64,000 bases of DNA from an uncultured Gammaproteobacteria bacterium (GCA_964522435.1 CAZFUL010000005.1:21568-85567), one strand, 5' to 3'. Numbered from the stretch's first letter, positions 10,078 through 24,671 are shown. A program made the numbers and translations. The notes: generated by a model from the sequence alone, not told the origin.

Positions 10078-10344
10078 ACAACAAAAATTATGAATAAAGG
10101 TGGAGGATATAGAGCGATTATAGCAGGGAGGGTTTGTATAGGCAAGGAATCCTAAATCTAAAATCATAAATCAAAAGTCAACAATTGTAATATAGTTTTT
10201 ACTGGTTCAATAGACTATTTCATCTATATTACGATGGAGCCAAAGATTACTTAAGGTTTATTCTCCAATTTTGATTTATGACGTTAGATTTATAATTTTT
10301 TCTCTTATTTTAGCAAAATTTTGTTATTTATGAGGCTGATACAC

Positions 10345-10373
10345 TTGACAAAATTGTTTTTTTATGATATTAT
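10345..10373 (+). promoter_or_regulatory. sigma70-like promoter (TTGACA, 17 nt, TATTAT) pointing into the island
   Basis: cttgacaaaattgtttttttatgatattat read directly. The spacing is consensus. Confidence 0.5.
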
Positions 10374-10379
10374 CTCCCG

Positions 10380-10603
10380 TTCTGAAAATGAAAGCTACAG
10401 ATAGAACAACTGACAATTACATAACATATCACTCCGTTTGCCTATATCTCGTCTACCTACGCCCCTTGGGCTTCGGTAGACAAAGGCGGACAAAGGAAAG
10501 AGAGAGCCTTAACAGTGATAGTTCAAAGAAATCCAGCACCCACCTACGCTAAAGCTTCGGTGGGCAAGTCAACCACTCTCTCAAACAGAGTGGTTTTGTT
10601 TTG
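10380..10603 (+). ncRNA. candidate small structured RNA (~220 nt) between the promoter and an intrinsic terminator
   Basis: Two related hairpins, ccTACGC..CTTCGGTag and ccTACGC..CTTCGGTgg, then the terminator ccactctctcaaacagagtgg plus ttttgtttt. No ORF is present. Confidence 0.35.
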
Positions 10604-10827
10604 ACAAGCTAACGCATTAGAAACAACTATTGCAGTAGCTTCTCGAAATAAACTCGAGAATGGTAGCGGAGGTTGTAGGACCTATGAGTGAAAGCAATTT
10701 TGCTCGTTCTCCCTCGCGGCTGCTCTAGATATCTAGTACCGAGTGCGTCTTGCCATGTGGCGAAAGTCACGTGGACAGGACACTCTGTAGTAGTACAGAG
10801 ATAAGCGATCTTTATACATACTCTACC

Positions 10828-10900
10828 TTGTTGGTGGAACCACTGTCTTTCTCACGTGAATAATACGATTGGGAAAGAGAGTGGTTCCACCGACGTCAAG
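10828..10900 (+). other. long imperfect hairpin (ggtggaaccactgtctttc ... gaaagagagtggttccacc)
   Basis: Stem of about 19 bp. It shares an agagagtgg segment with the upstream terminator stem. Confidence 0.5.
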
Positions 10901-10991
10901 CTGTGCTGTCCAGCGTTACGCATCTGGGAATGGTTCTCAGTGCGTTAAAGACGTCATCCACATCTGTGGATGTTTGACAGAGGAGTGCCCC

Positions 10992-11255
10992 ATGAACGCC
11001 CCCGCGCTGACCGAGACGACCCCCGCCGCCAACGCCTACCGCCCCACCCTCGCCGAAGCTCGCCGCCGCGCCCGGAGCGCGGAGCGAAGTGGCCGTCCCC
11101 TCGAGCGGATCTACGCGATCCGGCTCGAGGAGGAGGAGACCCCCGCCCAGCCCGAGCGGGTGGTGGTGGCTCCGAAGAAGCCGGTCAGCCGTTCCAATCG
11201 GCGGTGCCCTGCTGAAAATCAGGGTGCGTTCGGCAAGGGACGACGCATCGACTAG
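10992..11255 (+). CDS. hypothetical small protein (Arg/Pro-rich)
   Basis: First gene of the high-GC island. The start is chosen at the internal Met (MNAPALTETT). Weak evidence. Confidence 0.3.
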   Translation: MNAPALTETTPAANAYRPTLAEARRRARSAERSGRPLERIYAIRLEEEETPAQPERVVVAPKKPVSRSNRRCPAENQGAFGKGRRID

Positions 11256-11735
11256 CCCCACTTCTGGGGTAACCATCCCTCAGCAAGGCTAGCTGAGGAT
11301 TACGATGGTCAACGATAGCCAAAAAAATGGAGGTACGTAACAATCACGTACCGTGATATAGCTTGGTGGAGAACGCTCCACCACCAGGCCCTGCGCAGCC
11401 CCCTCGGAGCGGGGGGCGAAAACGAAGATCGGTTGGGACTTCGCGTCTTTCCCAACCACGGCAGAGCAGGTGGCCAACTACCTGCAATCAAGCACTCGGA
11501 GTAAGGGAAGTATGCACATGCTTCCCACTCCACTATTCATCTCAAGTTTGTTGAGGTGAGTAGTGGAGGTTCCGTCTACTCCCGATTGAATCGGGATTTG
11601 ATGGATAAAACTGTTCATTAAAAATAACAGCCACACTCAGAAAAAGAGTTCTTTGAAAAAAGGAATGTTTTTCTGAGTGTGGTTTTTGCATTTCAACCAA
11701 CGCTGGAAATTCCAGCCGCAACCAGGAGGTGACTC

Positions 11736-12767
11736 ATGGACAAGGCGGCAGGGAATGTTCCAGGCTCGCCAAATATATTCCCGATCGGGGCCTGGAAATG
11801 GCTCGTGGTCGGGGAAAAAGTAGACCTCGACGCTATTCTGGCGTTGTACATTATGGGCATCCGCCCATGGTACGACATCCGGGTGGTGTCGGGGTCGGCG
11901 ACGGGTGCAGAGCTCGCGGATTCCCGCGTGCTCTGCATCGAAGTTGGAGGGAGCGGCCGGGTGGAAGAAGGAAACTTCGACCACCATGGTAGCTCCGGAG
12001 TTGTTGAATGCGCCAGCCGTCAGGCTTGGTGCATTTGGCAGAAAGAACAAGAACAGCGCGCGCGGATCCTCAACGGGTTGGTCGATTATGTCGGCCTCCT
12101 TGATGAAGGGCACCGTCGCGCCGAGTCCGGACAGGTTGCGTTTCCCTCGTTGACGCAACTCTTTTCCGGCATGCTCCTCTCTGTGCGTAAGCCTGAGGAG
12201 CAAATTCAACAGGGCTTGCTGTTGATCGACGCTGCTGTCCGCGTTGGTCTGAACCCGTTCCTTGAGAGCGGGAGCAAGTTGTTTGAGGTTCTGGACAGTG
12301 CCCGGCTGTGGGCTGCCACCAAGCGTGCGCATGAAAAGAATGGCGAAGCCATTCTGGCGAACGCAACGTGGCTCACCAGTCGGGAAGGGCGCCGGGTCGC
12401 GGTCATTGAGACCACCTGGTTCGGCGCCCCTGGTGCGTTGCAGGGGGCTGGGGCAGATCTCGTGATCGCCCTGAATCCTCGCCACTGTGTGAACGTAGCG
12501 GATTATTTTCGCAAGTTCACGGTGGCAGCGCATCGAGAAGCAGGCATTTCGGTTCTTCCTGCCCTGCCCGAGCTGAATCAGCTCGAGCTTGGATGGGACG
12601 GGCCTGGCCACGGCACAATCATCGGGTCACCCCGAGGAAAGAGCAGCTGCCTGAGTATGTCTCAGGTGGTAGCCGTGGTCTTTCGGCAAATTTTTGGGGA
12701 AGCGTTGCAGATCGATGAGATTTGCAACACCCCGGAAATTTTGCCGGAGGAATGCCTGGCGGCCTAA
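11736..12767 (+). CDS. DHH-superfamily phosphoesterase-like protein
   Basis: Strong RBS (AGGAGGT) 7 nt upstream and high GC3. Motifs DLDAILAL (DxDAxGS-like), NFDHHG (DHH) and GPGHG (GGGH-like) appear in DHH/DHHA1 order. Confidence 0.5.
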   Translation: MDKAAGNVPGSPNIFPIGAWKWLVVGEKVDLDAILALYIMGIRPWYDIRVVSGSATGAELADSRVLCIEVGGSGRVEEGNFDHHGSSGVVECASRQAWCIWQKEQEQRARILNGLVDYVGLLDEGHRRAESGQVAFPSLTQLFSGMLLSVRKPEEQIQQGLLLIDAAVRVGLNPFLESGSKLFEVLDSARLWAATKRAHEKNGEAILANATWLTSREGRRVAVIETTWFGAPGALQGAGADLVIALNPRHCVNVADYFRKFTVAAHREAGISVLPALPELNQLELGWDGPGHGTIIGSPRGKSSCLSMSQVVAVVFRQIFGEALQIDEICNTPEILPEECLAA

Positions 12768-12881
12768 CAGCCGCTCCCCATCTGGTTGGGGGTGAGGTAA
12801 TCAGACCCGTTTGCTTGCACGGGTAATGCAACAAGCACACGATGAATCTCCCAGCGCAAACAAAGTAGCGAAAACTGCGAA

Positions 12882-13433
12882 ATGATTGCCAAAATGTTTC
12901 CGGGTAAAAACTCCGCCCGGGAAGTTTACACACAGAGGCAACTCTGGCACATGCGTGCATATTGTGTAGACTGGCTCAATTACGAGCAACATTCCTCCTT
13001 TTCCTTTCCGGGCGGAGCGCCTGGAAGAGGAGGGGGAGCATGCGTCGTGCATACCTCTACTCAGGATGACATCTTGAATGCCACCCAACATATCCCGACC
13101 GCCGAGCAGTTCGCTGCCGGCGTGATCGAACCCTGTTCGGAGGTGAAGGAGCGTATCGTCGTGCTTCTTACCTTCAACAAAATCCCTTCGCAAACTGAGG
13201 TTCTCGATCGGGCGCGTGCTTTGGCCGCGCTTGTGAAAGAACAGGGGTACAACGCCGCCATGATTGGTGGCGTCGCCTACCTGATGCCTCCCTTTGAGCG
13301 GGAGCTGCGTCGGGTGGGCGTGATCCCGCTGCATGCGTTCACCGAACGACGTGCGGTGGAGAAGCACACCCCCGAAGGCGTGGTGAAGACGAACGTCTTC
13401 GTCCACGTCGGTTTTTTTGAGGGGATTGAGTAA
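12882..13433 (+). CDS. hypothetical protein
   Basis: 183-aa ORF in the island on the same strand as its neighbours. No motif recognised. The start is uncertain and may be Met24. Confidence 0.4.
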   Translation: MIAKMFPGKNSAREVYTQRQLWHMRAYCVDWLNYEQHSSFSFPGGAPGRGGGACVVHTSTQDDILNATQHIPTAEQFAAGVIEPCSEVKERIVVLLTFNKIPSQTEVLDRARALAALVKEQGYNAAMIGGVAYLMPPFERELRRVGVIPLHAFTERRAVEKHTPEGVVKTNVFVHVGFFEGIE

Positions 13434-13918
13434 AAAAAAAGAAAGGAAAAAAAGATGAGAAGATAGCGCGCCACTCACTTGGGCGCAAGGCATAAATACA
13501 ACTGAGGGGTGCCGTATCACCCCCTGCAAAACCATTCTCGTCTATACGGAGATAGAGCATGGCGATTGGTCCACGTTAAGGATGCACTCGGATTCGGCTT
13601 TGCACAAAGTCGATTCCACCGGAATATTTTTCTTAGACAGAAGAATATTGGGGTGGGATAGAATGCGACTGTTCTTTAAAAAATTATCCGCCTTCGTCAC
13701 CTTCTGGTGGCTACGGCGGACAAAGATAGCGTGTGCTCAAAAAGATTTTTGGCAAACAGAAATTTTTTTGAGCATACGCTCGTTTCCTACTCGGCAGGCA
13801 TGGTGTCTCGCCGGGTTAAACCAGGAACTGACCCCACTGAGTTGGGGAAAAAATGGGACAGCAACCCCATCAGTTCCCGCCGCATGTTCACGCGGCGTTA
13901 CTCTCTTTGGAGAGAAAC

Positions 13919-14857
13919 ATGAACAACTTCAAGACCTTGTCCTTCCTCCTGGGCCTCCAGCCCAGCGATCCGGCCTCCGTCATGGAGGTCGCCCCCACCC
14001 TCAACCTCGGGGCCGACGACAAGGTCGTGCCCCAGCTCGAGGCCGCCCTCCGGGCGGCCGGCCTCGAGGGCCTGGCCCTCGAGCGCATCGTGTTCCCCGG
14101 CAACGGGGCGGCGGCGATCGCCATGGTCGCCCTGTACGAGGGTGCGCAGGGGATGCAGCTGCCCACCCATGTGGTAGCGACGGCCCCCTTCAAGGGCAAC
14201 GCGGAGGTCGGTGAGTTCAACCTCGCCAACCTCCGTCACAACGAGGCCCGCAGCCTCCGGGACGAATTCGAGACCGACGAAGAGAATGCCACCGCCAACG
14301 GCGCGTGGCTCCTGCTCGACGGCTCGGGGCGCCCCGTGCCCAACCAGATCCTCCTGGATCTGATGCGGGAGACCGCCGGTGCCACCGACATCACGGTCGT
14401 GCCGTTGGGCATGCCCGCCCAGCGCAGCGTCACCGAGCCTTGGAAGGCCGCGGACGGTTCGACCACCACGGTCGACCGCCTGCGCGCCCTGCTCGCGGAC
14501 GGCGCCTTCACCCGCGCCGACCTGATGTCCGGGCGGGTGGCCTTCCTGCCCCCCGGGATGGGCACCGCGGCGCTCTGCGACGCGGCGATCATCTACGGCG
14601 TGGCCGAGTCCTGGCCCACCGTGGTACGGCAGGCTGGAACGGCGCCCTTCCCCTTCGCCGAGCTGGTGCGCGTGCACGAGCTGCGCCAGCTGGGCGCGCA
14701 GATCGCGGCCGAGCTGAAGACCGCCGAAGCCCCGGTGCTGGTGCCCCGTCACCTCCTGAACGAGGTGGTCGAGGCGCTGCAGACCCGCAACGAGGAGGGG
14801 GCGGACTACGGTGAGCTCCTCGACGAGCTCACCACCCTCCTCGCCCGCGGCCGCTAG
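13919..14857 (+). CDS. hypothetical protein (313 aa)
   Basis: A GGAGAG RBS precedes the ATG at 13919. High GC3 and no recognised domain. Confidence 0.55.
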   Translation: MNNFKTLSFLLGLQPSDPASVMEVAPTLNLGADDKVVPQLEAALRAAGLEGLALERIVFPGNGAAAIAMVALYEGAQGMQLPTHVVATAPFKGNAEVGEFNLANLRHNEARSLRDEFETDEENATANGAWLLLDGSGRPVPNQILLDLMRETAGATDITVVPLGMPAQRSVTEPWKAADGSTTTVDRLRALLADGAFTRADLMSGRVAFLPPGMGTAALCDAAIIYGVAESWPTVVRQAGTAPFPFAELVRVHELRQLGAQIAAELKTAEAPVLVPRHLLNEVVEALQTRNEEGADYGELLDELTTLLARGR

Positions 14858-15122: not shown

Positions 15123-15590
15123 TTAGACCCGCATGAGGTCGACTTTTTCTTCGACTCGCTGTTGACGTAAACTCACTGCGGCAAGGTCTGATTCTTGTTT
15201 TTGATAGAGGCCGATAAAGTCATCAACATGATTGTTGATTTCATGACGAAGGACAGCAATATCAGTTTTGAGTTCAGTTCTGACCAAAGTAATTTCTTGG
15301 TATAGCTCGGTTTTTGCTGATCGGATTTCTTTGTTCATATCCTTTCTTACCGATGTAATTTCTTGGCTGAGCTCCTTTTTTACCGATTGTATTTCTTGAT
15401 TGAGTTCTGTTCTTACTGATGTAATTTCTGTTTGTAATTCTTTTTGAAAGCGATTGATTTTTTTATCAAGTCTTTGTTCTACCTGAAAAAGATCGTCTTT
15501 GGTGGCAGCGTTATCTTTGAGAAAATCAATGGCTTCTCGATTTTCGTGAACGGCTTGGAGGATATCTCTGAGAGTTGGCTCGTGTTCCAT
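15123..15590 (-). CDS. coiled-coil hendecad-repeat protein, paralog of 9514..10077
   Basis: Repeats ELQTEITSVRT / ELNQEIQSVKK / ELSQEITSVRK, an ATKDD motif and an N-terminus MEHEPTLRDILQAV. It is low-GC and on the minus strand, embedded inside the high-GC island. Confidence 0.55.
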   Translation of the reverse strand: MEHEPTLRDILQAVHENREAIDFLKDNAATKDDLFQVEQRLDKKINRFQKELQTEITSVRTELNQEIQSVKKELSQEITSVRKDMNKEIRSAKTELYQEITLVRTELKTDIAVLRHEINNHVDDFIGLYQKQESDLAAVSLRQQRVEEKVDLMRV

Positions 15591-15954
15591 AGAAGAAGAC
15601 AGGTACCTAAATAATATATATACCATATCACAAACAAAAAAAAGAGACTATCAAAAAAATAAAAAAATTCGAAAATGCGCGATTGCTGATAGCTATTCAC
15701 GAGGAGTGGAATATTATCAGGAGTTGCGACAAGTATATACGGCAGTTCCTTACAAAAAAATATTTATGGTGAACAGCCTTCCACCACTCAATTAAGAGTA
15801 GAACAAGATAGATTACCCTATCTTGCTTTTTGCTTTTAGTTGAGTGGTGAAAGGGAAGAGAGACAAAAAAGCCGTCTCCCTCTAACACCATTAAACCGTC
15901 CCGCAAACTGGGGCGTCCGGCTGCTCGCCGGCTCTTTCAAAACGAGGAGGGGAA

Positions 15955-16509
15955 ATGAGCGCACATATGATGCGGTGGTTTGAGTTTTTGATGATCCCGC
16001 GCAACATGCTTGTGTTGGGATTGAGCGTCGGCCTCCTGGTCGCCATCATCGGCGGCTGGGACATTCTCGAGCCCACGAGCGGACTCGCCACCCTGGCCTT
16101 CGCTGCCGCCACCTGGTGGCAGACGAAGAAAAAGGCCAAGGCTCGCTACGCGAACATCGAGGGCGAGGATTTCATCATCGTTCTCGAGCTCAAAAGGACG
16201 GTGGTGGAGTCGATGACGAAGCAGTTTGGTCGGGCACCCGACCAGGTGCTCTTTGTCAAAAAATTGATCGGCACCATCGAGTTGACTACTGAAGAACACT
16301 GGGAAACACTCGTACGGGCTGTATGGGAGGTGATGTCCTCCCATCAGGATAAAAATATCTTATTTGCCAGTGACGTTCCCGGGCAACTCTGGGCATGTCT
16401 CGGACAGATGGCCGGGATGGACCGTCTCCGAGTCAAATGGCTCGGGTACTTCAATGGTCAAATCGATGAGAGCTGTCCTCGCCCCCGAGGTGATTGGATG
16501 TTGCCATGA
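15955..16509 (+). CDS. membrane-anchored hypothetical protein (N-terminal TM helices)
   Basis: GAGGAGG RBS and two predicted TM segments. It overlaps the next gene by 16 nt (ATGTTGCCATGA), suggesting translational coupling. Confidence 0.55.
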   Translation: MSAHMMRWFEFLMIPRNMLVLGLSVGLLVAIIGGWDILEPTSGLATLAFAAATWWQTKKKAKARYANIEGEDFIIVLELKRTVVESMTKQFGRAPDQVLFVKKLIGTIELTTEEHWETLVRAVWEVMSSHQDKNILFASDVPGQLWACLGQMAGMDRLRVKWLGYFNGQIDESCPRPRGDWMLP

Positions 16510-16976
16510 TTTGGTGCCTCCGCTCTGGCGAATCCGTGCGGGATCGGGATGATTCCCACCTGCACGGGGACGTCGTGAGGTACCTGCCCGAAGTGTTGGC
16601 TGCCACCAATTCGCGGGGGCAGGCAAGCATTGTTCGGGAGCACCGCTTTCCCAGGGTCGTTGGTGTGAAGAATGTGGTGCAGACCAACCAGTCTGACAGC
16701 ATTCTCTTCGCCCAACGGCCGGGGAGAGCGGGCTTATCGCGGTTCGTGTTGAACCGTCGCCCGGAACCCACCAATTGGGTTACGGTCATTCTGCGCCAGC
16801 AACCAACTGGCGAGTACATGATCGTATCTGCTTGGTGCGGACCGGCGACGACCCACGAACCGTGGGACAAGTACGCGACCCTGTCAGTCAGCCGCCGGTT
16901 CTGGAGCACCCACGCGATTGTGTGGGGCACCGAACCGGCGGACGAAGAAACCATAACCACAACCTGCCCCTGGTGA
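16494..16976 (+). CDS. hypothetical protein (160 aa)
   Basis: Coupled to the upstream gene and on the same strand as the MoxR/VWA pair. Confidence 0.45.
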   Translation: MDVAMIWCLRSGESVRDRDDSHLHGDVVRYLPEVLAATNSRGQASIVREHRFPRVVGVKNVVQTNQSDSILFAQRPGRAGLSRFVLNRRPEPTNWVTVILRQQPTGEYMIVSAWCGPATTHEPWDKYATLSVSRRFWSTHAIVWGTEPADEETITTTCPW

Positions 16977-17179
16977 ATGTGGGCAGAAAAAAGGAGGCAC
17001 TCGAGGCTCGTTATGATATGCACATTCATACGAGCCGGCTTCACGAGTAGTGATTGCAAATGCAATGACTACTGATGAAGCCGCAACAGTAGCAGACCTG
17101 CTGCTGTGTGGTGTGTTCTTGAAAATCGAAAACAGTTTTTTGACATCCTCGATTTGATCGGGGAGAGGAGGAAGAGGCC

Positions 17180-18448
17180 ATGAAGCCGGTAATCGCTACC
17201 ATTCTGACTGCGGCGCTTGCGCTGCGGACGAAGATTGTGGAAACTCAGCGCGCCCTTGCGGGGGCGCTGGTCGAGCGTGAGGACGAAGTCCTCGCCTGCC
17301 TGGTCGCCATGGTCTGCGATCAGGCGGTGTTCTTCTATGGCCCGCCCGGCGTGGCCAAGACCTTCGTGGCCGAGCTCTTGCTCAAGGCCATCGAAGGTGC
17401 CACGTACTACACTGCCCTCATGCCGGGCGTGGCCGACCCTGACGACCTGTTCGTCGAGGGGATCTCGGTGGTGAAAATCGATGAGGGTGGCGGCCATATC
17501 CGTACCATCATCGAAAAAACACCTGGCAGAGCGGCGCTCGTCAACGGTGTCCTGCTCGATGAGCTCTTCAAGGTGGACGATCCACGTGTCCTCCAGGCGC
17601 TCCTGGATTTGACCTTGTCGGACGGTGTGCGCCTGGAAGGCCGGCGTCTGGCCGACCAGGCGCACCTCGTGATGGGCATCTCGAACGAAACTCCCAATTC
17701 TGGGAGCGAGTTCGATGCCCTTTGGGCACGGTTCGTCCTGCGTTTGTCCGTCAAGCCCCTCGGGGCTGACGGGCGTAAGCGCATGATCCGTATCCAAGAG
17801 GCTGCGGCTCGTAATGGCGGAGCAGGAGTCGTCCGCCCAGCGAATCCACTCACGTTGCAGGACATCGCGACCCTGCAGCAGGCTGCGGCGCAGGTCGACA
17901 TCGGAGATGACATCCTCGACCTCATCGAGGAGACCATCGACGAACTGTTCAGCCAAGATGCGGATGCCTTCCGCTGGCTGAAGCAGGACGATCGCCGTCG
18001 TGGCCTGATGGTCAAGGCGTTGAAGGCGCACGCCTTGATCCACGGACGGACGGCCGTTTCCAAGGCCGACCTGGTCATTCTGAAATGGATGATGTGGAAT
18101 CATCCAGATCAAATCGAGCAGGTCGAGGAAAAGGTGAAGCCGCTTGCGGCGACACCTTTCTCCGAAGCCTTGGAGGAGATCGATGACCTCCTCGCCCCCA
18201 ACGGCAAGGTGTGGAGGGCGTTTGAGAAGCGGGAAATGACCTGCTTCACGGACGCCGCCGCTCAGATCAACCGTTTGAAGGACACCGTCCTTCCTCGGTT
18301 GATCAGCCAAGCCAGTGGGATTGAACTCAGCCGTCTGGAAGCCATGAAGAATGGTGTCCAACGGCTGTTCACGGGAGTGATGGCGCGCATCTCGGGCCAG
18401 GAGTCCGAGATGAGCTGGGACGCTTTCGTCCAGCTCCTCAAGAGCTGA
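17180..18448 (+). CDS. MoxR-family AAA+ ATPase
   Basis: Walker A GPPGVAKT, Walker B VLLDELF, a sensor-1 Asn region, an Arg-containing second region of homology (SRH) and a C-terminal helical lid. A GAGGAGG RBS is present. Confidence 0.8.
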   Translation: MKPVIATILTAALALRTKIVETQRALAGALVEREDEVLACLVAMVCDQAVFFYGPPGVAKTFVAELLLKAIEGATYYTALMPGVADPDDLFVEGISVVKIDEGGGHIRTIIEKTPGRAALVNGVLLDELFKVDDPRVLQALLDLTLSDGVRLEGRRLADQAHLVMGISNETPNSGSEFDALWARFVLRLSVKPLGADGRKRMIRIQEAAARNGGAGVVRPANPLTLQDIATLQQAAAQVDIGDDILDLIEETIDELFSQDADAFRWLKQDDRRRGLMVKALKAHALIHGRTAVSKADLVILKWMMWNHPDQIEQVEEKVKPLAATPFSEALEEIDDLLAPNGKVWRAFEKREMTCFTDAAAQINRLKDTVLPRLISQASGIELSRLEAMKNGVQRLFTGVMARISGQESEMSWDAFVQLLKS

Positions 18449-18458
18449 GGAGGGAGAC

Positions 18459-20192
18459 ATGTCTTCGTCCGAAAAAAGGCGAGGAGCCCCACCGCTCCGA
18501 AGGCAAGATCTCGAACCTGCTCTGGTCACTGATGCCGATTCCGTAACGGTACGGCGTTATTTGTCCAGGCGGTCTGAGACCCCTGCCATCTGGGGGCTCG
18601 AACAGAGCGCAAATATCTCGGGTGCTCCCGCTGCACTCGCAGATACCTTCAACGTCTTGCTGTCCTCAGCGGTCGGCGTCAAGCCAGAGGACAGTGTCAA
18701 ACCTGCGCAACGCTATTGGCGAGGGATCCTTGATCAATCAATGGAGACCTCGCCGTTCGAGGCGTTGCGTGGAAAAACCCGTGGCGATGAACTCTTGTCT
18801 ACGATTGGCACCTTGGAGGCGGCGAACACCGTCTTCGGTCTGGTGCCCAAACAGGACAAAGAGAAACTCGATAAGTTGGCCCAGGCGCAAGCCGAGGCTG
18901 ATGAATTCGAGGCTGATGCGCAAAAAGCAGAAATGGACGCGCAAGCGTTTCAAGATCTGCTCGCGCAGATGCAAGCCGCGGTACAAACCGAAGACGGGGC
19001 TGGTCAGGGAAGCGGACAACCGCAACCTGGTCAGCCTAGTGTTGGTCAAGCAGGAGGAAAAGCTTCGGGTAAGTCCTCCAGCGGATCGGCGCAGATGAGT
19101 GCTGAACAAGCACAACAAATCGCTGATCAATTGACCAAGGCGCAGAACAAAGCAGCAGAAGCCCGTGAATTGGCAGATGCTGCTCAAGAAGAGCTTCAGG
19201 CCAAAGCTGACGCATTGATGGGGAAACCCGGAACTGCAGAGGCAGAAGCCAAGCTCGACGAACTGCGTCGACTCGGTCGTGCGGCCATGCAACAGGCAAA
19301 CGAAACGGTCGGAGAAGTCCGAGATACCGTGGCGGCCTGGGGCGTGGAAGCTGGCGAGATTGCCAACCTGGATCCGACGGAAGCGATGGCGCTTCTCGAG
19401 CGCATGAAGAGCAATCAGCATTTCAAAAAATTTGCTGAGTTGCTTGGACGCTTGCGTCGGGCCGCGGAGAAAAAGGCTCGGATGGAAGAAAAGGGTAAAA
19501 GCACACGCGTGCCCCGAATCCATCTGGGTCGAGATATCGGCCGAGCACTGCTCAGTGAGGTCGCTGCCTTCGCGATGGGTGATATCCATGAGGATATGGT
19601 CACCGAGCGATGGGCACGCGGTACATTGCGACAGCGCGGAGCCGTGACCAAGCGCCAACAAAGCGCAAGCGAAGGCCCGATGGTGATCTGCGAAGATGCC
19701 TCGGGATCGATGGCTGGTGAGCCCTATCGCTGGGCAAAGGCCGTCACCTTGGCGCTGGCCACACTTGCTCGTGAAAAGAAGCGGGGCTACGGCTGGGTCA
19801 TGTTCGATGAACGCGTTCAGCGTTCGCGCGCATATCCTGCCGGAAAACTCGGAGCGCGTGACATCCTCGAAATTGCCGAAACGGCAGCAACCGGTGGTGG
19901 CACAAACTTTGAGGCACCGCTTCTCCAGGCAAAGAAAATGATCGACGAAGAAGGTCTTGAAAAAGCCGACATCGTTCTGATCACGGATGGGGACTGCGCG
20001 GTTTCGCAGCAGTTCCTCGAAAAATTCTTGGCCTGGAAGCAAGAACGGTCGGTGACAGTGATCTCCGTGGTTATCAATGTGGGAAGCTATGCTTGCTCCA
20101 CTGCCACGGTTGATAAATTCTCCGACCGCGTCGAGCGCGTCTCGAGCTTCACCGCGGAAGCGGCTGAAGCTCAGGTGTTCGCCCACCTCTGA
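18459..20192 (+). CDS. von Willebrand factor A (VWA/MIDAS) domain protein with a long N-terminal coiled-coil, Q/A/G-rich region
   Basis: C-terminal VWA with MIDAS DASGSM, GGGTNF and LITDGD motifs. It is the obligate partner type for MoxR ATPases, as in RavA-ViaA, CoxD-CoxE and NorQ-NorD. Confidence 0.8.
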   Translation: MSSSEKRRGAPPLRRQDLEPALVTDADSVTVRRYLSRRSETPAIWGLEQSANISGAPAALADTFNVLLSSAVGVKPEDSVKPAQRYWRGILDQSMETSPFEALRGKTRGDELLSTIGTLEAANTVFGLVPKQDKEKLDKLAQAQAEADEFEADAQKAEMDAQAFQDLLAQMQAAVQTEDGAGQGSGQPQPGQPSVGQAGGKASGKSSSGSAQMSAEQAQQIADQLTKAQNKAAEARELADAAQEELQAKADALMGKPGTAEAEAKLDELRRLGRAAMQQANETVGEVRDTVAAWGVEAGEIANLDPTEAMALLERMKSNQHFKKFAELLGRLRRAAEKKARMEEKGKSTRVPRIHLGRDIGRALLSEVAAFAMGDIHEDMVTERWARGTLRQRGAVTKRQQSASEGPMVICEDASGSMAGEPYRWAKAVTLALATLAREKKRGYGWVMFDERVQRSRAYPAGKLGARDILEIAETAATGGGTNFEAPLLQAKKMIDEEGLEKADIVLITDGDCAVSQQFLEKFLAWKQERSVTVISVVINVGSYACSTATVDKFSDRVERVSSFTAEAAEAQVFAHL

Positions 20193-20199
20193 AAACCAA

Positions 20200-20400
20200 A
20201 AACTCCCCCAGCATTGCTGACAACTGGGGGAGCCTGAAAAACAGTCAGTCAGTGTTTCTCGCCTGGCAATGAGAAAACACTGTCAAAAAGTTACGCCAAA
20301 GGAGATTCGTGGTGACTCCAAATAATTTCATCACACAACCGGTCGTTTGTTTTGCTGCACACACTGCAAACGACCCTTCAACTTTCTTTCTGATAGGAAT
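20200..20400 (+). repeat. structured intergenic element, copy 1 (three hairpins), paralogous to 23233..23428
   Basis: The 3' core of ~105 nt is ~96% identical between the copies. The upstream hairpins are diverged with compensatory changes. Confidence 0.6.
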
Positions 20401-20527
20401 GTCGGGGAGAAAGAGAAGAGATTCCTGGAATCGGACGCTGCAACCGATTCACACACAAAACCGTTCCAGTATGGAAAGCTCTATCCGTACTACGCAGAAG
20501 GAACAAGCCTCTTGAAAGGAGGAGAGC

Positions 20528-20839
20528 ATGCAGTGGACTATTGTATTTTTTTCATCGTGGGATCACCCCGTCGATGAACGCCCTGGCCTGGTGCCCGAAG
20601 GGTGTCTGGGTCTGTACCTCATTGATGTGAGGCACGATTCCGAAGAATTCTTGCTCGAGGGGTATCTTCCTATGGGGCAAGAAGTCGACGCACAGGTCTG
20701 CTTCGACTTGAAAAGTACGGAGCAGGTGTACCGAGGGGTGGGGGCAGAGTCTCCCATCGCGGAGTTCCGCAACGCCCAAGGTGAGGTGGTCGTCCGCCTC
20801 ATCTGGGATCAGGAGACGGGGGAGTACCGGCGGGAGTGA
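20528..20839 (+). CDS. hypothetical small protein (103 aa)
   Basis: GGAGGAG RBS, downstream of repeat copy 1. Confidence 0.45.
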   Translation: MQWTIVFFSSWDHPVDERPGLVPEGCLGLYLIDVRHDSEEFLLEGYLPMGQEVDAQVCFDLKSTEQVYRGVGAESPIAEFRNAQGEVVVRLIWDQETGEYRRE

Positions 20840-21117
20840 TCTCGCCGTAGCCATAGAAAAAGAAAGGGGGAACAGTGGTGATCTCGTGCCCTCCGAGATC
20901 GCCTTCCCAAACCACTTCCACAGACAGGTTCTGATAGATATGTACTCTCTCTCATATCTGTTACGAAATTATCTGTATGGGGAAGTGATTTGGGGAAACC
21001 CTAAAATTCGTTTTTCGCTCTAACAATCCTGTTGGCACGAAAAACATTGGTCTTTCAAATCAAAAATAAACCAGCCCCCCGACTTTAGGTCGGGGGGTGT
21101 AGACAAGGAGATTTGCG

Positions 21118-23223
21118 ATGTCGACCACCACCCCAGCTCCGGAAAAGATCATTTCCCTCATCACTTCTGAAGAGGGAAAAGATTTTAAGACAAATGGGGA
21201 AGTGGTGGGAAACTATCGCTACTCCATTGTTTTTTTCCCGCGCGGGGAAAAGTGTGAGCCGGGGAAAGAATACCGGCTTGAGCTGACTCCTTTACGGGGT
21301 CAAGACGGAAACCCTCGAACCGACAAGCGCGGAAAGGTGATGTACACATCACGCCCCGCTGCCGTGGAGATCACCGAGACCTGGGAATCCTTGCCCGACG
21401 GCAATATCCAGCAGCTGCAAGTCCGCACGGACTGGCGCTTGCAGGAAGTTGGTCGCCGGGTCATCGACGGCCCCCGCCCACCTGCGGCGCGCGAAGCTGC
21501 CGAGTTGTTCCCCACCACCCGAAAGGAGTTGGTGTTTGGCAGCTCGGTTGCCGACACGCACCTGGCAGAGGTTGTCGTGCACACCTTTCCCATCGAACAG
21601 GAAGAGGTGAAGGCCGGCAAAATCAGCTGGGTGCGCAGCGGGGAACGCCAGGTGGAGGACTCTCCCGTCCTCTACCTGGTGGACAGCCTTGTAGGCGTGC
21701 TGTATACCGGCACGCTCGACCTGGTGTACCCGCCGGAGCGTGACTGCTCCGTTGAGGTACGATTTACCGGAGGAAAATCCGGCACCCGCCTGTCGCTGCG
21801 CTGGGATGCTCTCCCGGCCTGGTTTCAGGCAGAGGTGCAGCGGCCGTATCCCGTCTGCCCCTGCGGCCGCAAGCGCGTGGGCTCCAACTCAGATGGCTAC
21901 GCCAAGTGCGAAAGCTGTCGGGACGAGGAAACCTGCGTGCGTTGCAACCAAGAGCGGCGCATCAACCTCATTGAGGGGCTCGCGATCTGCAAGGGTTGCG
22001 AGCCCATGGCTCGGCTTGAGGCGGAGGTACATATCCATGTGCCACAGTCCAAGCGAGCTGAGCTGGCTGCGCAAGCGGCTCGGCTCATGTCGGCGAATGC
22101 GCTTCCTGGTGATGTCGGCTACTCCCTGCTCAAAGAATTGTTGAGCGCTGAGGGGGTGGAAGGCGAAACCCAGGAAGTGTTGCTGCGGCGAGCAGATCAT
22201 GCCTGGCTCTACTTCTTCCCTACGGGAGAAGTATGGGCCAGCCACCTGCCTCTGGTGGCGCTGCAGATTTTGGCAACAGCGCTCGGCGCGGCGCAGGGCA
22301 ACGGCCTGGTCACCTTGGTGGCCTGGATGGTTAGCCCGACCTACTTTGTGGCCACGCAAGTGGAACACAAAGAGCTCTCCCTGTATTGGGAGACGCCGCT
22401 GCACAGCGTGCAGCTCGCCAAGCGGGTGCGCCAGGCGCATGCCGAGCGGCAACGCCGCCTCGATCAGATTGACGTGTTGATGGCAGGGCTCATGAACACT
22501 GATTTCAATGACGAGTGGCGGCTCAAACAGCTCCGCTCGGCGACGCTTCTTGATCAAGAGGATGGGGCTAGCGATAGCCAAATCCTCTTGGAAATAGAAA
22601 GCACGCAGGCGAAGCGGAAGGCGGAACGCGAGGAGCTCGTGGCAGTGAAAGCTGCGGCAAAGCCGATCGCGGAGAAGATCTTTGCTGAGGAGCATGATCT
22701 TCCCAAGGCCTGCCGCAAGGCCAACCGCGACAGCCAAGCCGAGGCGGTTGAGCACGCCTATGGCTGGATCACCAGCCGTCGTCGCTGGGAGCACGATGAG
22801 CCGGTCGTCCAGAATTGGCTGGACTGGGAAAATCTTGAGCGCCTCCGGGAGTTTGTACAAAAGTACTCCTGGGTGCTCGAGCCCATCCGTCCGCTCGTTG
22901 TGCCGCCTCGCCCTCGTTGGGGCGATCTCCCGAACCCGAGCGCCGTCCCGACCCCTGCTCGCCAGAGCAACGGTACTGTGGCCACCTTCACCGATACTGG
23001 TGATGGTCGACACTTCCGTTGTTCTGCTTGTAACGGTACCCATCGGGTAACAAAAGCAGAACAGCGCAGCTACAAAGATGGCGAAGAAATTCACCTGATC
23101 TGTGGCTGTAGTGCCGAAGGAAGGGTACGGCAGGTTGTTGCTCCCGTGTCTCCCAGCACCGCTGGTGCTGGAGACATGGCTGATCAACTGGCCGCTTTGC
23201 GCAGCAAGTGGGGTGGCTCCTAG
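21118..23223 (+). CDS. large hypothetical protein (701 aa) with multiple CxxC zinc-ribbon-like clusters
   Basis: Cys clusters CPCGRK..CESC..CVRC..CKGC mid-protein and CSACNG..CGC near the C-terminus. A GC hairpin and an AAGGAG RBS lie upstream. No known catalytic motif. Confidence 0.65.
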   Translation: MSTTTPAPEKIISLITSEEGKDFKTNGEVVGNYRYSIVFFPRGEKCEPGKEYRLELTPLRGQDGNPRTDKRGKVMYTSRPAAVEITETWESLPDGNIQQLQVRTDWRLQEVGRRVIDGPRPPAAREAAELFPTTRKELVFGSSVADTHLAEVVVHTFPIEQEEVKAGKISWVRSGERQVEDSPVLYLVDSLVGVLYTGTLDLVYPPERDCSVEVRFTGGKSGTRLSLRWDALPAWFQAEVQRPYPVCPCGRKRVGSNSDGYAKCESCRDEETCVRCNQERRINLIEGLAICKGCEPMARLEAEVHIHVPQSKRAELAAQAARLMSANALPGDVGYSLLKELLSAEGVEGETQEVLLRRADHAWLYFFPTGEVWASHLPLVALQILATALGAAQGNGLVTLVAWMVSPTYFVATQVEHKELSLYWETPLHSVQLAKRVRQAHAERQRRLDQIDVLMAGLMNTDFNDEWRLKQLRSATLLDQEDGASDSQILLEIESTQAKRKAEREELVAVKAAAKPIAEKIFAEEHDLPKACRKANRDSQAEAVEHAYGWITSRRRWEHDEPVVQNWLDWENLERLREFVQKYSWVLEPIRPLVVPPRPRWGDLPNPSAVPTPARQSNGTVATFTDTGDGRHFRCSACNGTHRVTKAEQRSYKDGEEIHLICGCSAEGRVRQVVAPVSPSTAGAGDMADQLAALRSKWGGS

Positions 23224-23232
23224 AACTAAACC

Positions 23233-23428
23233 TTTCCCGGTTGATGCTGGTATCCCGGGGGAGTCTGAAAAAATTTACCAGTGCGTGTCTCTTGCTTGGC
23301 AACAGGAAGACACGGAAAAAAAGAAACGCCAAGGGAGATTCGTGGTGACTCCAAATAATTTCATCACACAACCGGTCGTTTGTGTTGCTGCACACACTGC
23401 AAACGACCCTTCCACATTCTTTCTGTCA
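23233..23428 (+). repeat. structured intergenic element, copy 2
   Basis: See copy 1. It follows the 701-aa gene by ~10 nt and precedes the next gene. Confidence 0.6.
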
Positions 23429-23575
23429 CAACGCAGTTTGGTACGGAGAGAATGAGAAGTGTTTCCGCCCGAGAGAAGAACGGGCGGTGTGTGTGGTCTC
23501 GTCAGTGGGTTACTGATTGAGGCCTTTCCAACCCAGTCCCCGCTACCGTGGGAGAAAACGGAGAAGGAGAAGATC

Positions 23576-24109
23576 ATGGCTCGTCGTGATGAGCCCATGT
23601 CGCGTGAGAAGTGGCTCGCGCAGCGAAACAATGGACGAATCTTTGAGAGCTGGGAGGATTTCCTCTCGGCCATCAAAGAGGCACCCACGGTATCCATGGG
23701 GAACGAGCCGGAGGGGACCATTCGTTTCTCCTCGTGCTTCGTTCTCGCACACGGTCCGACCCGCTATGTGGTGTACACGCTCGGCACCCCAATCTTTGGG
23801 GTGAGCGTGGGGCAACAAGGCGTTTCTGAGCTCTCCTGGTTCCCTCTGGAGCCGGTCGAGTTCACGCCCGAAATGCTTCTCACCCTCGTTGGGGTGGGGT
23901 GTAAGTTCAACGACACTGGGAGCGAGATTCGCTCCCTCACGGGCTGGGAAGCCATGCTCCACCTGGAGCAGCGCTACAACTGGCTCGTGCAATCCGGCAA
24001 GGTGGATCCTCGCGGTGGTGGGCTGCTCTCACCGAGTTCGGCCTTCTTCCGTGAAGGCGAAGACATGGCCGATCTCGAACAGCAGATCGCTGCGCTCGAG
24101 ATCGCCTGA
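23576..24109 (+). CDS. hypothetical protein (178 aa from the RBS-supported start)
   Basis: GGAGAAGGAG RBS. The C-terminus GEDMADLEQQIAALEIA resembles the C-terminus of the 701-aa protein (GAGDMADQLAALRSKWGGS). Confidence 0.5.
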   Translation: MARRDEPMSREKWLAQRNNGRIFESWEDFLSAIKEAPTVSMGNEPEGTIRFSSCFVLAHGPTRYVVYTLGTPIFGVSVGQQGVSELSWFPLEPVEFTPEMLLTLVGVGCKFNDTGSEIRSLTGWEAMLHLEQRYNWLVQSGKVDPRGGGLLSPSSAFFREGEDMADLEQQIAALEIA

Positions 24110-24671
24110 AGCGTGTAACCAAAAACAAAGGAGAAAATAGCAAAAAATAAAAAAGCTGCGCCATAATTCAAAGGCGTAGAGGTGGGTGACCTCGCGGGAT
24201 TCCTAAAATTCCCAACAGAGCCAACCCCGACGAGGTCGGGGAGAATTGCGCCCATGCTATCACGGGCGCGGACTAGAGAGTCCGAAGTGCGCAAGCACAA
24301 GTCAAGCATCTGGAGCAGTTGCTCCTCGTGCGATAGTTGCTGAGCTTATCCTATTCCAATCGAGAATGCCCAAAACGGTCACGTATGTGACTTCTCGATA
24401 TACAAGCGCTTGTATAGGCTTGTCGGAGTACCCGGGGTAGGCCAGTACCAATTTAGGGTACTGTTCTTTTTCTCTTCCGCTTCACGCCAAGGGGGGTGGG
24501 CGGAGTGATGAACTGTTGCTACAAGCGACAATTCGTCCAATAACGACGGGAGTGTTTATTGCAAACACCCCCGGTTCGACTATCATTTTCTTTTTTATAA
24601 AAGGAAGTGATTGAGAATATATATAATCAATCAGCTGCCCCACCAGCGGATTTTTTATTTTCCAAAATTAC

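What the first reader, a model, noticed from the sequence alone, without database searches (positions are those of the whole stretch)
10170..24670. A ~14.5 kb high-GC island with strong ribosome-binding sites, sitting in a low-GC, Shine-Dalgarno-poor backbone
GC rises from roughly 35-40% to roughly 60-65% by eye. The rise occurs between the rRNA methyltransferase plus coiled-coil gene on the left and endonuclease III on the right. Every island gene is on the + strand and carries an AGGAGG-like RBS, whereas backbone genes mostly lack one. Codon third positions in the island are G/C-dominated. None of the island genes is a housekeeping function. Both edges, at 10.2-11.0 kb and 24.1-24.7 kb, are long non-coding stretches full of hairpins. 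No tRNA, integrase or transposase is visible, so the mobilisation mechanism is unknown. Such an extreme, sharp compositional break is unusual for a naturally ameliorated insertion, so a chimeric contig must also be considered.
Basis: seen in the sequence. Interest (0 to 1): 0.75.

Follow-up and report, generated by a model that had tools for sequence, protein, structure and literature searches.

The report
Foreign high-GC island in CPR bacterium
A 14.5 kb block of foreign, GC-rich DNA has really been inserted into a conserved operon of a tiny Candidatus Magasanikbacteria (candidate phyla radiation, CPR) bacterium; it carries a rare, uncharacterised gene module (MoxR ATPase, VWA partner and a new zinc-ribbon protein) separated by unusually hairpin-rich spacers.

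Summary
GC rises from about 0.40 to 0.52-0.70 between 10.4 and 24.6 kb. GC3 is 0.57-0.92 against 0.26-0.41 in the backbone. Shine-Dalgarno (SD) motifs precede 8 of 11 island genes but only 1 of 31 backbone genes. One detail is wrong: a low-GC coiled-coil gene (15123-15626) sits inside the island on the minus strand.

The backbone is a Candidatus Magasanikbacteria chromosome. In two relatives (RlmD 66-67% identical) nth lies 4 nt from rlmD, or is separated from it by one unrelated ORF, and both flanks stay collinear. The 14.5 kb is therefore a true insertion, not a chimera.

The island belongs to a rare family, seen on three other short, all-high-GC metagenome contigs. The shared core is a TM/SAVED-like protein, a phrog_23674-like protein, a MoxR AAA+ ATPase, a VWA protein and a 700-aa eight-cysteine zinc-ribbon protein. 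That last protein has about 95 relatives, no Pfam domain and no fold match.

Every spacer is packed with hairpins (z -4 to -13), some kept by compensatory changes in a relative. No integrase, tRNA, flanking repeats or virion genes were found.

Best reading: a horizontally acquired, now immobile, mobile-element-derived conflict module. Its function is inferred only.

The parts
8209..9507 (-). Left backbone flank: 23S rRNA U-C5 methyltransferase RlmD
   Evidence: NCBIfam TIGR00479 at 2.1e-52. The closest homologs are named Candidatus Magasanikbacteria or Patescibacteria.
9514..10167 (-). Coiled-coil gene cc1. It is low GC (0.38) with no SD; the likely true start is M31, near 10077. It is absent at this site in both relatives, so it may belong to the variable region.
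   Evidence: It is a weak paralog of cc2. L010 has no gene here, and L008 has an unrelated 236-aa ORF.
10117..10145 (-). Promoter-like site (TTGCCT-17-TATAAT, extended -10) that could drive cc1-rlmD now that the operon is split
   Evidence: This is a consensus match only.
10345..10373 (+). Near-consensus sigma-70 promoter-like site (TTGACA-17-TATTAT, 11 of 12 matches, TG extended) facing into the island
   Evidence: sequence.
10380..10605 (+). Structured leader or sRNA-like stretch ending in a terminator-like hairpin plus T-run (10571-10603)
   Evidence: Fold z = -3.2; terminator scan; no Rfam match.
10606..10991 (+). Hairpin-dense non-coding spacer
   Evidence: MFE -159.8 kcal/mol, z = -8.9; a 25-nt-arm inverted repeat at 10830-10894.
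10992..11255 (+). p87: an 87-aa Arg-rich ORF, GC 0.71, SD AGGAG
   Evidence: Called as a gene on Logan contig L003; no Pfam hit.
11256..11735 (+). Hairpin-dense spacer with about 10 consecutive stem-loops
   Evidence: MFE -210.8 kcal/mol, z = -10.3.
11736..12767 (+). p343: unknown protein, SD AGGAGGTG
   Evidence: No Pfam, PHROG, PADLOC or PDB match. The same protein is present in a Logan assembly of SRR12762285.
12882..13433 (+). p183: weak Csx20/CARF-like similarity. A possible true start is the GTG at 13047, which lies behind GGAGGGGGAG.
   Evidence: PADLOC Csx20 at 6e-5; upstream sequence.
13434..13852 (+). Spacer with AT-rich hairpins
   Evidence: z = -6.4 for 13643-13852; inverted repeat I5.
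13853..14857 (+). p334: unknown protein, GC 0.70, GC3 0.92. It has a homolog on L001. The likely start is at 13919.
   Evidence: tblastn to L001 at 29% identity, 1e-16.
15123..15626 (-). cc2: a low-GC (0.38), SD-less coiled-coil gene nested in a spacer on the opposite strand. It interrupts the p334-p184 adjacency seen on L001.
   Evidence: phrog_9415 at 1.6e-13. L001 has a 407-nt spacer and no gene at this position. Only one relative, at 35% identity, exists in 5.8 billion proteins.
15955..16509 (+). p184: an N-terminal TM segment plus a SAVED-like domain. Core gene of the element family.
   Evidence: PADLOC SAVED4 at 4.6e-6. The L001 homolog hits Pfam SAVED at 2.6e-5, 24.5 bits, below the cut-off of 26.2. 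63.5% identical to L013; alignment A4.
16494..16976 (+). p160: phrog_23674-like core gene. It is N-terminally about 85 aa shorter than its homologs.
   Evidence: PHROG at 9.6e-20; 47-48% identical to the L001 and L013 homologs of 242-246 aa.
16977..17179 (+). Spacer upstream of MoxR whose hairpins are conserved in L001 through compensatory changes
   Evidence: z = -5.4. RNAalifold gives 41 pairs, 13 changed on both sides, 0 broken. Only two sequences were compared.
17180..18448 (+). MoxR-type AAA+ ATPase
   Evidence: Pfam bpMoxR PF20030 at 7.8e-14, AAA_lid_8 and AAA_5; phrog_19600 at 4e-34.
18459..20192 (+). VWA (CoxE-like) protein with a long acidic helical N-terminal region
   Evidence: Pfam VWA_2 and VWA_CoxE; phrog_24053 at 4.9e-47; about 30% identical to jumbo-phage ATPase-partner proteins.
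20193..20527 (+). Spacer carrying copy 1 of a ~170-210-nt repeat (core 20246-20392), with a possible small ORF VVTPNNFITQPVVCFAAHTANDPSTFFL
20528..20839 (+). p103: unknown protein, SD AAGGAGG
21118..23223 (+). p701: the third conserved partner of MoxR-VWA. It has a beta-rich N-terminal domain, four CxC/CxxC pairs, a helical region, and a small C-terminal zinc-ribbon module that other proteins also carry.
23224..23458 (+). Spacer carrying copy 2 of the repeat (core 23279-23425)
23459..24109 (+). p216: unknown protein. Its C-terminal tail (DMADLEQQIAAL) resembles the p701 tail (DMADQLAAL).
   Evidence: the tail similarity is not significant by BLAST.
24110..24671 (+). Right-hand hairpin-dense non-coding stretch
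   Evidence: MFE -204.3 kcal/mol, z = -6.5.
24672..25316 (-). Right backbone flank: endonuclease III (nth). In relatives it is immediately followed by rlmD.
   Evidence: TIGR01083 at 1.5e-62; L010 and L008.

Best explanation
Window 10168-24671 is a genuine, horizontally acquired 14.5 kb genomic island in the chromosome of a Candidatus Magasanikbacteria (Patescibacteria/CPR) bacterium. The insertion may begin at 9508 if the first coiled-coil gene is included.

It was inserted, in the opposite orientation, into a conserved co-directional gene string (APRT/deaminase - nth | rlmD - dsbA - vkor). That split the string, so rlmD and the genes downstream of it now depend on a new promoter.

The DNA comes from a high-GC, Shine-Dalgarno-using gene pool. 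It belongs to a rare family of mobile-element-like, one-directional gene arrays. Their conserved core is a TM/SAVED-like protein, a phrog_23674-like protein, a MoxR AAA+ ATPase, a VWA co-chaperone and a ~700-aa eight-cysteine zinc-ribbon protein (p701). The genes are separated by long spacers that fold into rows of hairpins on the coding strand.

Inferred mechanism:
- The MoxR hexamer and its VWA partner act as an ATP-driven chaperone and co-chaperone switch on the third component, p701, and perhaps on the membrane SAVED-like protein. This would make the core a MoxR-vWA ternary conflict module, either defence or counter-defence.
- The variable neighbouring genes (Csx20/CARF-like here, Csx3-like in a relative) point to cyclic-oligonucleotide signalling.
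- Transcription probably enters from the near-consensus promoter at 10345-10373. The spacer hairpins then act on the RNA, in termination, processing or stabilisation of individual cistrons.

No recombinase is encoded. The island was therefore either inserted by a recombinase supplied in trans or captured by illegitimate recombination after DNA uptake, and it is now immobile.

Shown: the insertion, its foreign composition, the element family and its core, and the hairpin density. Inferred: function, transcription pattern, donor and route of entry.
For: True insertion. L010 has the nth stop 4 nt from the rlmD start. L008 has nth, one unrelated ORF, then rlmD. Both flanks are collinear with the window over more than 10 kb. 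The backbone lineage comes from named RlmD homologs.

Foreign composition. GC, GC3, SD and tetranucleotide data.

Element family. L001, L013 and L014 are high GC throughout (0.52-0.72) and share the gene order p184-p160-MoxR-VWA-p701. L001 also carries p334. Identities are mosaic: p184 is 63% identical to L013 but 26% to L001, while MoxR is 44% against 68%.

The third partner. The p701 family has 95 cluster representatives below 1e-10 and lies next to MoxR-VWA in all 3 contexts where this could be checked.

MoxR and VWA. Domains. Their role as a chaperone and co-chaperone pair, and the ternary conflict systems built on it, are described in PMC7159879. Occurrence in jumbo phages is shown and by PMC7824862.

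Signalling hints. SAVED, Csx20 and Csx3 hits.

Hairpins. Island spacers have z = -4 to -13, against -0.4 to -3 for most backbone intergenic regions. L001 spacers show the same. The + strand is the more stable one in 10 of 12 spacers. Two hairpins upstream of MoxR are kept in L001 with 13 compensatory pairs.

Precedent. Genomic islands are already documented in Patescibacteria (PMC12455944).
Against: - No independent contig spans a junction. The Logan contigs from the same run stop at about 9561 and about 10978.
- There are no flanking direct repeats, tRNA or recombinase, so no integration mechanism is demonstrated.
- The SAVED, Csx20 and Csx3 hits are weak or borderline, and no nucleotide cyclase or effector enzyme was recognised.
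- None of the four third components described for MoxR-vWA ternary systems is present.
- The donor lineage is unidentified. There are no relatives of MoxR in 185,579 GTDB species genomes, and none of MoxR or p701 in IMG/VR. Phage and plasmid records hold no DNA or p701 match, and only distant (~30%) VWA relatives in jumbo phages.
- p160 is N-terminally truncated relative to its homologs, so the module may be decaying.
- It is untested whether an SD-independent CPR translation apparatus expresses these genes.
Confidence: 0.6

Rival explanations
1. Chimeric or misassembled contig: a high-GC fragment from another organism was spliced into a CPR contig by the assembler.
For: The compositional step is extreme. 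The Logan contigs from the same run break near the left edge, at about 9561 and 10978. The palindromic hairpins are the kind of sequence that confuses de Bruijn assemblers; the ends of L014 are palindromes.
Against: The contig returns to exactly the same operon junction after 14.5 kb, and both flanks are collinear with two relatives. A low-GC host-like gene is nested inside the island. A second small islet at 1.7-3.1 kb shows the same signature. Backbone and island proteins both occur in the same sequencing run.
Confidence: 0.04
2. Remnant of a prophage or other virus-derived region: MoxR-VWA and their neighbours are virion-assembly chaperones, and the rest of the phage has been lost.
For: Three consecutive genes hit PHROGs 23674, 19600 and 24053, and cc2 hits phrog_9415. 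ATPase-VWA pairs occur in Bacillus phage 0305phi8-36 and Moorella phage MTATph1 at about 30% identity. A MoxR-vWA pair assists tail assembly in an archaeal virus and is proposed to aid assembly in jumbo phages (PMC7824862). Identities among family members are mosaic.
Against: No capsid, portal, terminase, tail, lysis or integrase genes appear in the window or on L001, L013 or L014. No relatives were found in 2.9 million IMG/VR contigs or 50,697 phage records for p701 or at the DNA level. A phage of a 40% GC host would not be expected to be 58% GC.
Confidence: 0.18
3. Fragment of a conjugative or integrative element, for example a leading-region-like array. In that case the hairpins would act in single-stranded DNA (ssDNA promoters or origins) and the genes would be early anti-defence functions.
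For: A distant MoxR-VWA pair (31% identity) sits in an element with AAA_24, PD-(D/E)XK, DUF6744, RadC, resolvase and FtsK/SpoIIIE genes. The genes are one-directional with dense hairpins. Ring-nuclease-like (Csx3, Csx20) and Lar-like hits are typical of anti-defence cargo.
Against: No relaxase, coupling protein, T4SS, replication or partition genes were found. There is no match in 72,556 plasmids. G-U-containing stems and greater stability of the coding strand fit RNA at least as well as ssDNA.
Confidence: 0.13
4. Native CPR region whose high GC reflects local selection or biased repair rather than transfer.
For: Nothing beyond the lack of an identified donor.
Against: The region is absent from the syntenic site in two relatives. 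It uses SD in an SD-less genome. Its homologs lie on contigs that are high GC throughout.
Confidence: 0.02

Closest known systems
Horizontally acquired genomic islands in Patescibacteria (e.g. PMC12455944: hundreds of islands in 125 aquifer genomes)
   Same: A compositionally deviant block of non-housekeeping genes, absent from relatives, in a streamlined CPR genome.
   Different: The GC excess is very large (+17 points) and unameliorated. The block sits inside an operon rather than next to a tRNA. It has no integrase or flanking repeats. Its cargo is an uncharacterised module rather than R-M or metabolic genes.
MoxR-vWA-centric ternary conflict systems (Kaur, Burroughs, Iyer, Aravind 2020, eLife; PMC7159879)
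   Same: A MoxR AAA+ ATPase that scores above threshold on the bpMoxR model, an adjacent vWA protein, and a conserved third large protein with variable C-termini. Nucleotide-sensor-like domains lie nearby.
   Different: The third component is none of VMAP, iSTAND, FtsH or a beta-propeller fused to vWA. It is a new zinc-ribbon family with no recognised effector domain. The host is a CPR bacterium, not a multicellular actinobacterium or cyanobacterium.
Phage and ICE MoxR/CoxD-like ATPase plus CoxE/VWA pairs (Bacillus phage 0305phi8-36 gp66/gp63; Moorella phage MTATph1; element on DJJR01000027)
   Same: The same two-gene pair in the same order, about 30% identical, embedded in mobile elements.
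   Different: The neighbours differ, and there is no p701, p160 or p184 in those elements as far as tblastn shows.
Phage 'morons' and cassette-like arrays
   Same: Independently bounded genes separated by structured spacers. A gene of different GC content (cc2) is inserted between two genes, on the opposite strand.
   Different: No phage backbone and no integron integrase. Apart from one duplicated ~200-nt spacer, the spacers share no sequence; attC-type structure was not tested.

Membership tests
Genomic island (classical criteria) | Base composition and codon usage differ from the core genome | tested here: met
   GC 0.575 against 0.41; GC3 0.55-0.92 against 0.26-0.41; tetranucleotide correlation 0.23-0.60 against 0.64-0.74.
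Genomic island (classical criteria) | Absent from the syntenic site of related genomes | tested here: met
   L010 has nth and rlmD adjacent. L008 has nth, one unrelated ORF, then rlmD. The flanks are collinear.
Genomic island (classical criteria) | Inserted at a tRNA or tmRNA gene | tested here: not met
   ARAGORN finds no tRNA or tmRNA in the 64 kb window. The insertion lies between two protein-coding genes.
Genomic island (classical criteria) | Flanking direct repeats (att sites or target-site duplication) | tested here: not met
   No repeat links the two edges. Very short duplications cannot be excluded, because no host intergenic sequence remains for comparison.
Genomic island (classical criteria) | Mobility gene (integrase, transposase or recombinase) | tested here: not met
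   No such domain was found in Pfam, PHROGs or PADLOC for any island ORF. Unknown proteins could still hide one.
MoxR-vWA ternary conflict system | MoxR-clade AAA+ ATPase | tested here: met
   PF20030 bpMoxR at 51.7 bits (cut-off 27), plus AAA_5 and AAA_lid_8.
MoxR-vWA ternary conflict system | Adjacent vWA-domain partner | tested here: met
   VWA_2 at 37.3 bits and VWA_CoxE at 28.3 bits. The gene starts 11 nt after MoxR.
MoxR-vWA ternary conflict system | One of the four described third components (VMAP, iSTAND, FtsH, or a beta-propeller fused to vWA) | tested here: not met
   There are no Pfam hits for such domains. The VWA protein has a helical N-terminal region and no propeller. The conserved third gene is p701, a family without any Pfam domain.
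MoxR-vWA ternary conflict system | Recognisable effector domain (peptidase, nuclease, TIR and similar) | tested here: inconclusive
   None was detected by sequence. The p701 model has no significant structural neighbour. Only one of nine unknown proteins was modelled.
Prophage | Virion and packaging genes (capsid, portal, terminase, tail) and lysis genes | tested here: not met
   PHROG hits are limited to three non-structural families and a coiled-coil family.
Conjugative or integrative element | Relaxase, coupling protein, T4SS or replication genes | tested here: not met
   None was found in Pfam or PHROGs. There is no plasmid match.
CBASS / type III CRISPR cyclic-oligonucleotide signalling | Nucleotide cyclase (CD-NTase or Cas10) | tested here: not met
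   No PADLOC or Pfam hit.
CBASS / type III CRISPR cyclic-oligonucleotide signalling | SAVED or CARF sensor domain | tested here: inconclusive
   p184 hits PADLOC SAVED4 at 4.6e-6. Its L001 homolog hits Pfam SAVED at 24.5 bits, below the cut-off of 26.2. p183 hits Csx20 at 6e-5. The L014 neighbour hits Csx3 at 24.6 bits, above the cut-off of 21.
Integron cassette array | IntI integrase and attC sites at cassette ends | tested here: not met
   There is no integrase. The spacers hold many unrelated hairpins rather than one attC-like site each. No attC covariance model was available, so attC itself was not formally tested.

The most novel reading that the evidence does not exclude
The island is an integrated copy of a previously undescribed class of genetic element. 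The class is defined by a MoxR-vWA-p701 ternary module and by RNA-hairpin-delimited, SD-driven cistrons. It circulates between CPR bacteria and their high-GC hosts or neighbours. It has stayed invisible because its palindromic spacers break short-read assemblies and because composition-based binning removes it from CPR genomes. Under this reading p701 has a new fold and acts as the sensor or effector of a new defence or counter-defence system.
Probability: 0.25. Interest if true: 0.7.

Novelty: new variant of a known kind. Interest (0 to 1): 0.5.

Why it matters
Three points follow from this island.

1. Transfer into CPR genomes. CPR bacteria have tiny genomes and depend on other cells. This is a clean, unameliorated 14.5 kb import from a very different gene pool, dropped into the middle of a conserved operon. 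It shows that large foreign blocks can enter and persist in these genomes. It also raises the question of whether strongly SD-dependent genes are expressed by a host that does not use SD.

2. A new gene family. The cargo defines a rare MoxR-vWA-plus-zinc-ribbon-protein module: about 100 sequence clusters, no Pfam domain, and a confident model with no structural neighbour. This extends the known set of MoxR-vWA ternary systems and gives a concrete candidate for experiments.

3. The spacers. They are hairpin-saturated and conserved in structure but not in sequence. This is an unusual regulatory architecture, and it may explain why such elements assemble poorly and are missed in binned genomes.

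Tried and rejected
- DNA search of the island against plasmids and phages: no match.
- GTDB species-genome scans with the MoxR alignment and with RlmD: no relatives.
- IMG/VR scans with MoxR, p701 and a p701 family alignment: nothing.
- tblastn of p701 against phages and plasmids: nothing.
- Exact-protein look-ups for nth, MoxR and cc1: not on record.
- Logan contigs from the source run are only 2-2.4 kb and do not cross a junction.
- Rfam at gathering and at permissive thresholds: only chance-level miRNA/snoRNA hits.
- Paper searches for the run and sample identifiers: nothing.
- PDB sequence and profile searches for p343, p701, p334, p184 and p160: no usable hit.
- The idea that cc2 is a recent duplicate of cc1 was rejected, since they share only 23-27% identity.
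- The idea that the L008 ORF between nth and rlmD is a cc1 homolog was rejected.
- The minus-strand coiled-coil gene on L014 shows no detectable similarity to cc1 or cc2.
- Circularity of L001, L013 and L014: no terminal overlaps.
- Island spacers have no sequence similarity to spacers of related loci or to the rest of the window, apart from the one internal duplicate.

Full report
**1. The observation**

A 1-kb sliding window shows a backbone of 0.36-0.45 GC and a plateau of 0.52-0.70 from about 10.5 to 24.5 kb, with one dip to 0.39 at 15.0-16.0 kb. In 80-nt windows the left step lies at about 10.4 kb and the right step at about 24.56 kb.

Gene by gene, island ORFs have GC 0.55-0.71 and GC3 0.57-0.92. 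Backbone ORFs have GC 0.38-0.45 and GC3 0.26-0.41.

A core of at least 5 nt of AAGGAGGTGA lies upstream of 8 of 11 island genes, against 1 of 31 backbone genes (Fisher p = 1.2e-5).

Tetranucleotide z-score profiles correlate as follows:
- 0.64-0.74 among backbone segments and two related genomes;
- 0.23-0.60 between island and backbone;
- 0.57-0.70 between the island and a related element.

The refutation criterion of a uniform k-mer signature is therefore not met.

There is no tRNA or tmRNA, no Rfam family and no recombinase domain.

One statement is wrong. A low-GC (0.38), SD-less coiled-coil gene (cc2) lies on the minus strand at 15123-15626, and it causes the internal dip.

**2. What the backbone is, and whether the junctions are real**

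The window carries rpoB, rpoC, ftsH, ftsK, rlmD and nth. The best RlmD relatives (54-67% identity) that carry source names are Candidatus Magasanikbacteria or Patescibacteria.

Two relatives supplied the empty site:
- On L010 (RlmD 67% identical) the order is Wzy - APRT/deaminase - nth - rlmD - dsbA - vkor - Na/Ca exchanger, with 4 nt between nth and rlmD.
- On L008 (66% identical) nth is followed by one unrelated 236-aa ORF and then rlmD. The flanks reach SASA, APRT and Wzy on one side and ftsH on the other.

The window has the same genes in the same order on both sides of the island. The 14.5 kb is therefore an insertion into a co-directional gene string, on the opposite strand.

An assembler chimera that leaves and re-enters the same junction is not credible. 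The nested low-GC gene, and a second islet with the same signature at 1.7-3.1 kb, argue the same way.

What I could not obtain is an independent contig across a junction. The Logan contigs from the same run (SRR12762285) contain both backbone and island proteins, but they are only about 2 kb long and stop at about 9561 and 10978.

**3. What the island contains**

The plus-strand genes are:

| Gene | Coordinates | Annotation |
|---|---|---|
| p87 | 10992-11255 | unknown |
| p343 | 11736-12767 | unknown |
| p183 | 12882-13433 | weak Csx20/CARF-like |
| p334 | 13853-14857 | unknown |
| p184 | 15955-16509 | TM + SAVED-like |
| p160 | 16494-16976 | phrog_23674 |
| MoxR | 17180-18448 | bpMoxR, AAA_5, AAA_lid_8 |
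| VWA | 18459-20192 | VWA_2, VWA_CoxE |
| p103 | 20528-20839 | unknown |
| p701 | 21118-23223 | zinc-ribbon family, no Pfam |
| p216 | 23459-24109 | unknown |

p160, MoxR and VWA match PHROGs 23674, 19600 and 24053. The ATPase-VWA pair occurs at about 30% identity in Bacillus phage 0305phi8-36 and Moorella phage MTATph1. It also occurs in an ICE-like region with resolvase, RadC and FtsK genes.

**4. The element family**

A protein search with MoxR found only one close relative, at 68% identity. Its 5.9 kb contig, L001, is 0.53-0.72 GC throughout. It carries, in order, homologs of p334, p184, p160, MoxR and VWA.

A JGI metagenome scan found L013 (9.1 kb), with homologs of p184 (63.5%), p160 (48%), MoxR (44%), VWA (51%) and p701 (27%).

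The best p701 relative lies on L014 (12 kb, GC 0.60-0.68). There it again follows MoxR and VWA, among one-directional genes with strong SDs. That contig also carries a Csx3-like gene and one lower-GC minus-strand coiled-coil gene.

The identities are mosaic, as is usual for mobile elements.

On L001, p334 is followed directly by p184 across a 407-nt spacer. In the window that spacer holds cc2. So cc2 was either inserted after the two blocks were already joined, or it was lost from L001.

**5. p701**

An exhaustive HMMER search gave 118 hits, 95 of them below 1e-10. They share an N-terminal ~405-residue region and have variable C-termini. Eight cysteines are invariant, and none of 51 members has a Pfam domain.

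The last ~80 residues form a small zinc ribbon plus a helix. This module also ends several unrelated proteins.

**6. The spacers**

Every non-coding stretch of the island folds far better than dinucleotide shuffles, with z from -3.4 to -12.9. Most backbone intergenic regions give -0.4 to -3.

The spacers of L001 behave the same way, with z down to -9.8. Those of the CPR relatives mostly do not. The trait therefore belongs to the element, not to the host.

The stems are unrelated in sequence, except for one ~170-210-nt spacer present twice, after VWA and after p701.

The coding strand is the more stable one in 10 of 12 spacers.

The spacer upstream of MoxR can be aligned with that of L001. RNAalifold finds 41 pairs, 13 changed on both sides and none broken. 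This is suggestive, but it rests on two sequences.

A near-consensus promoter-like site (10345-10373) faces into the island and is followed by a structured stretch and a terminator-like hairpin.

**7. Interpretation**

The secure part is a real, recent or poorly ameliorated horizontal acquisition in a CPR genome. It comes from a high-GC, SD-using pool and carries a rare mobile-element-like module.

The functional reading rests on three things: what is known about MoxR-vWA pairs (PMC7159879, PMC7824862), the strict adjacency of p701 to the pair, and borderline hits to sensor and ring-nuclease families. On that basis MoxR-VWA would be an ATP-driven switch acting on p701, or on the SAVED-like membrane protein, in a conflict system. 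The reading fails the membership test for the described ternary systems, because the third component is different. I therefore call it a new variant rather than a member.

The prophage-remnant and conjugative-fragment readings remain possible and are scored below the best explanation. The chimera reading is very unlikely.

Genomic islands as such are already documented in Patescibacteria (PMC12455944). The island itself is thus a known kind of thing. Its cargo and spacer architecture are the new elements.

Noticed in passing
window 1669-3092: A second, small high-GC islet lies between rpsA (S1) and ftsH. It holds two + strand genes: 1827-2282 (GC 0.57, SD AAGGAGG) and about 2326-2747 (weak HTH hits). 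Both are flanked by hairpin-dense spacers (z -4.4 and -8.1). The signature matches the main island.
   Followed up: partly
window 57851-58639: A HAD-like hydrolase gene has GC 0.52, GC3 0.59 and a perfect AGGAGGT SD in an otherwise SD-less backbone. The upstream non-coding stretch 56474-56702 is also strongly structured (z -5.9).
   Followed up: no
window 48000-50500: This stretch is unusually low in GC (0.31-0.36). It includes a RimK-like ATP-grasp gene (48461-49324, GC 0.28, GC3 0.17) and could be a separate acquisition from a lower-GC source.
   Followed up: no
window 46444-46917 (- strand): A 157-aa ORF with GC 0.51 and GC3 0.59 has no Pfam hit and stands out from its neighbours.
   Followed up: no
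window 9514-10167 and 15123-15626: The two minus-strand coiled-coil genes are distant paralogs. They share an N-terminal motif (E-x-T-x-x-DIL-x-x-V ... ATKDD). Each sits immediately to the left of a high-GC block. Neither is present at this site in the relatives. cc2 matches phage families phrog_9415 and phrog_21734.
   Followed up: partly
window 20246-20392 and 23279-23425: The duplicated spacer contains a possible SD-preceded small ORF (VVTPNNFITQPVVC[F/V]AAHTANDPSTFFL). Two of the three differences in the core are synonymous. It may be a leader peptide rather than pure RNA structure.
   Followed up: partly
window 16494-16976: p160 lacks the ~85-residue N-terminal region present in its L001 and L013 homologs, and it overlaps the end of p184. 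This suggests a deletion, so the module may be partly degraded.
   Followed up: partly
window 22918-23223 (p701 residues ~603-700): The C-terminal zinc-ribbon-plus-helix module of p701 recurs at the extreme C-terminus of several otherwise unrelated, Pfam-less proteins (P0230, P0237, P0240, P0248-P0252). p216 ends with a similar DMAD...AAL tail. It could be a docking tag.
   Followed up: partly
L014 1-40 and 12047-12086; Logan contigs L002, L003: Contigs of this element family end in perfect palindromes, and the Logan contigs of the source run break near island spacers. The hairpins probably fragment short-read assemblies, and composition-based binning would then discard the pieces.
   Followed up: no
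L008 3135-5929: A related Magasanikbacteria contig has about 2.8 kb of extra genes between APRT and SASA that the window lacks: Trp-repressor-like, AstE/AspA-like, an acetyltransferase and two unknowns. GC is raised to 0.51 at 4-6 kb. This neighbourhood is a variable region in the lineage.
   Followed up: no
L010 2980-3472: A 490-nt non-coding stretch with a promoter-like site and a terminator hairpin lies between APRT and nth in the relative. It has no counterpart in the window, where APRT and nth overlap.
   Followed up: no
window 26543-29026: The SASA/CBM-domain gene is the only backbone gene with an SD-like motif (GGAGGT). Its position relative to nth differs between the window and L008.
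   Followed up: no
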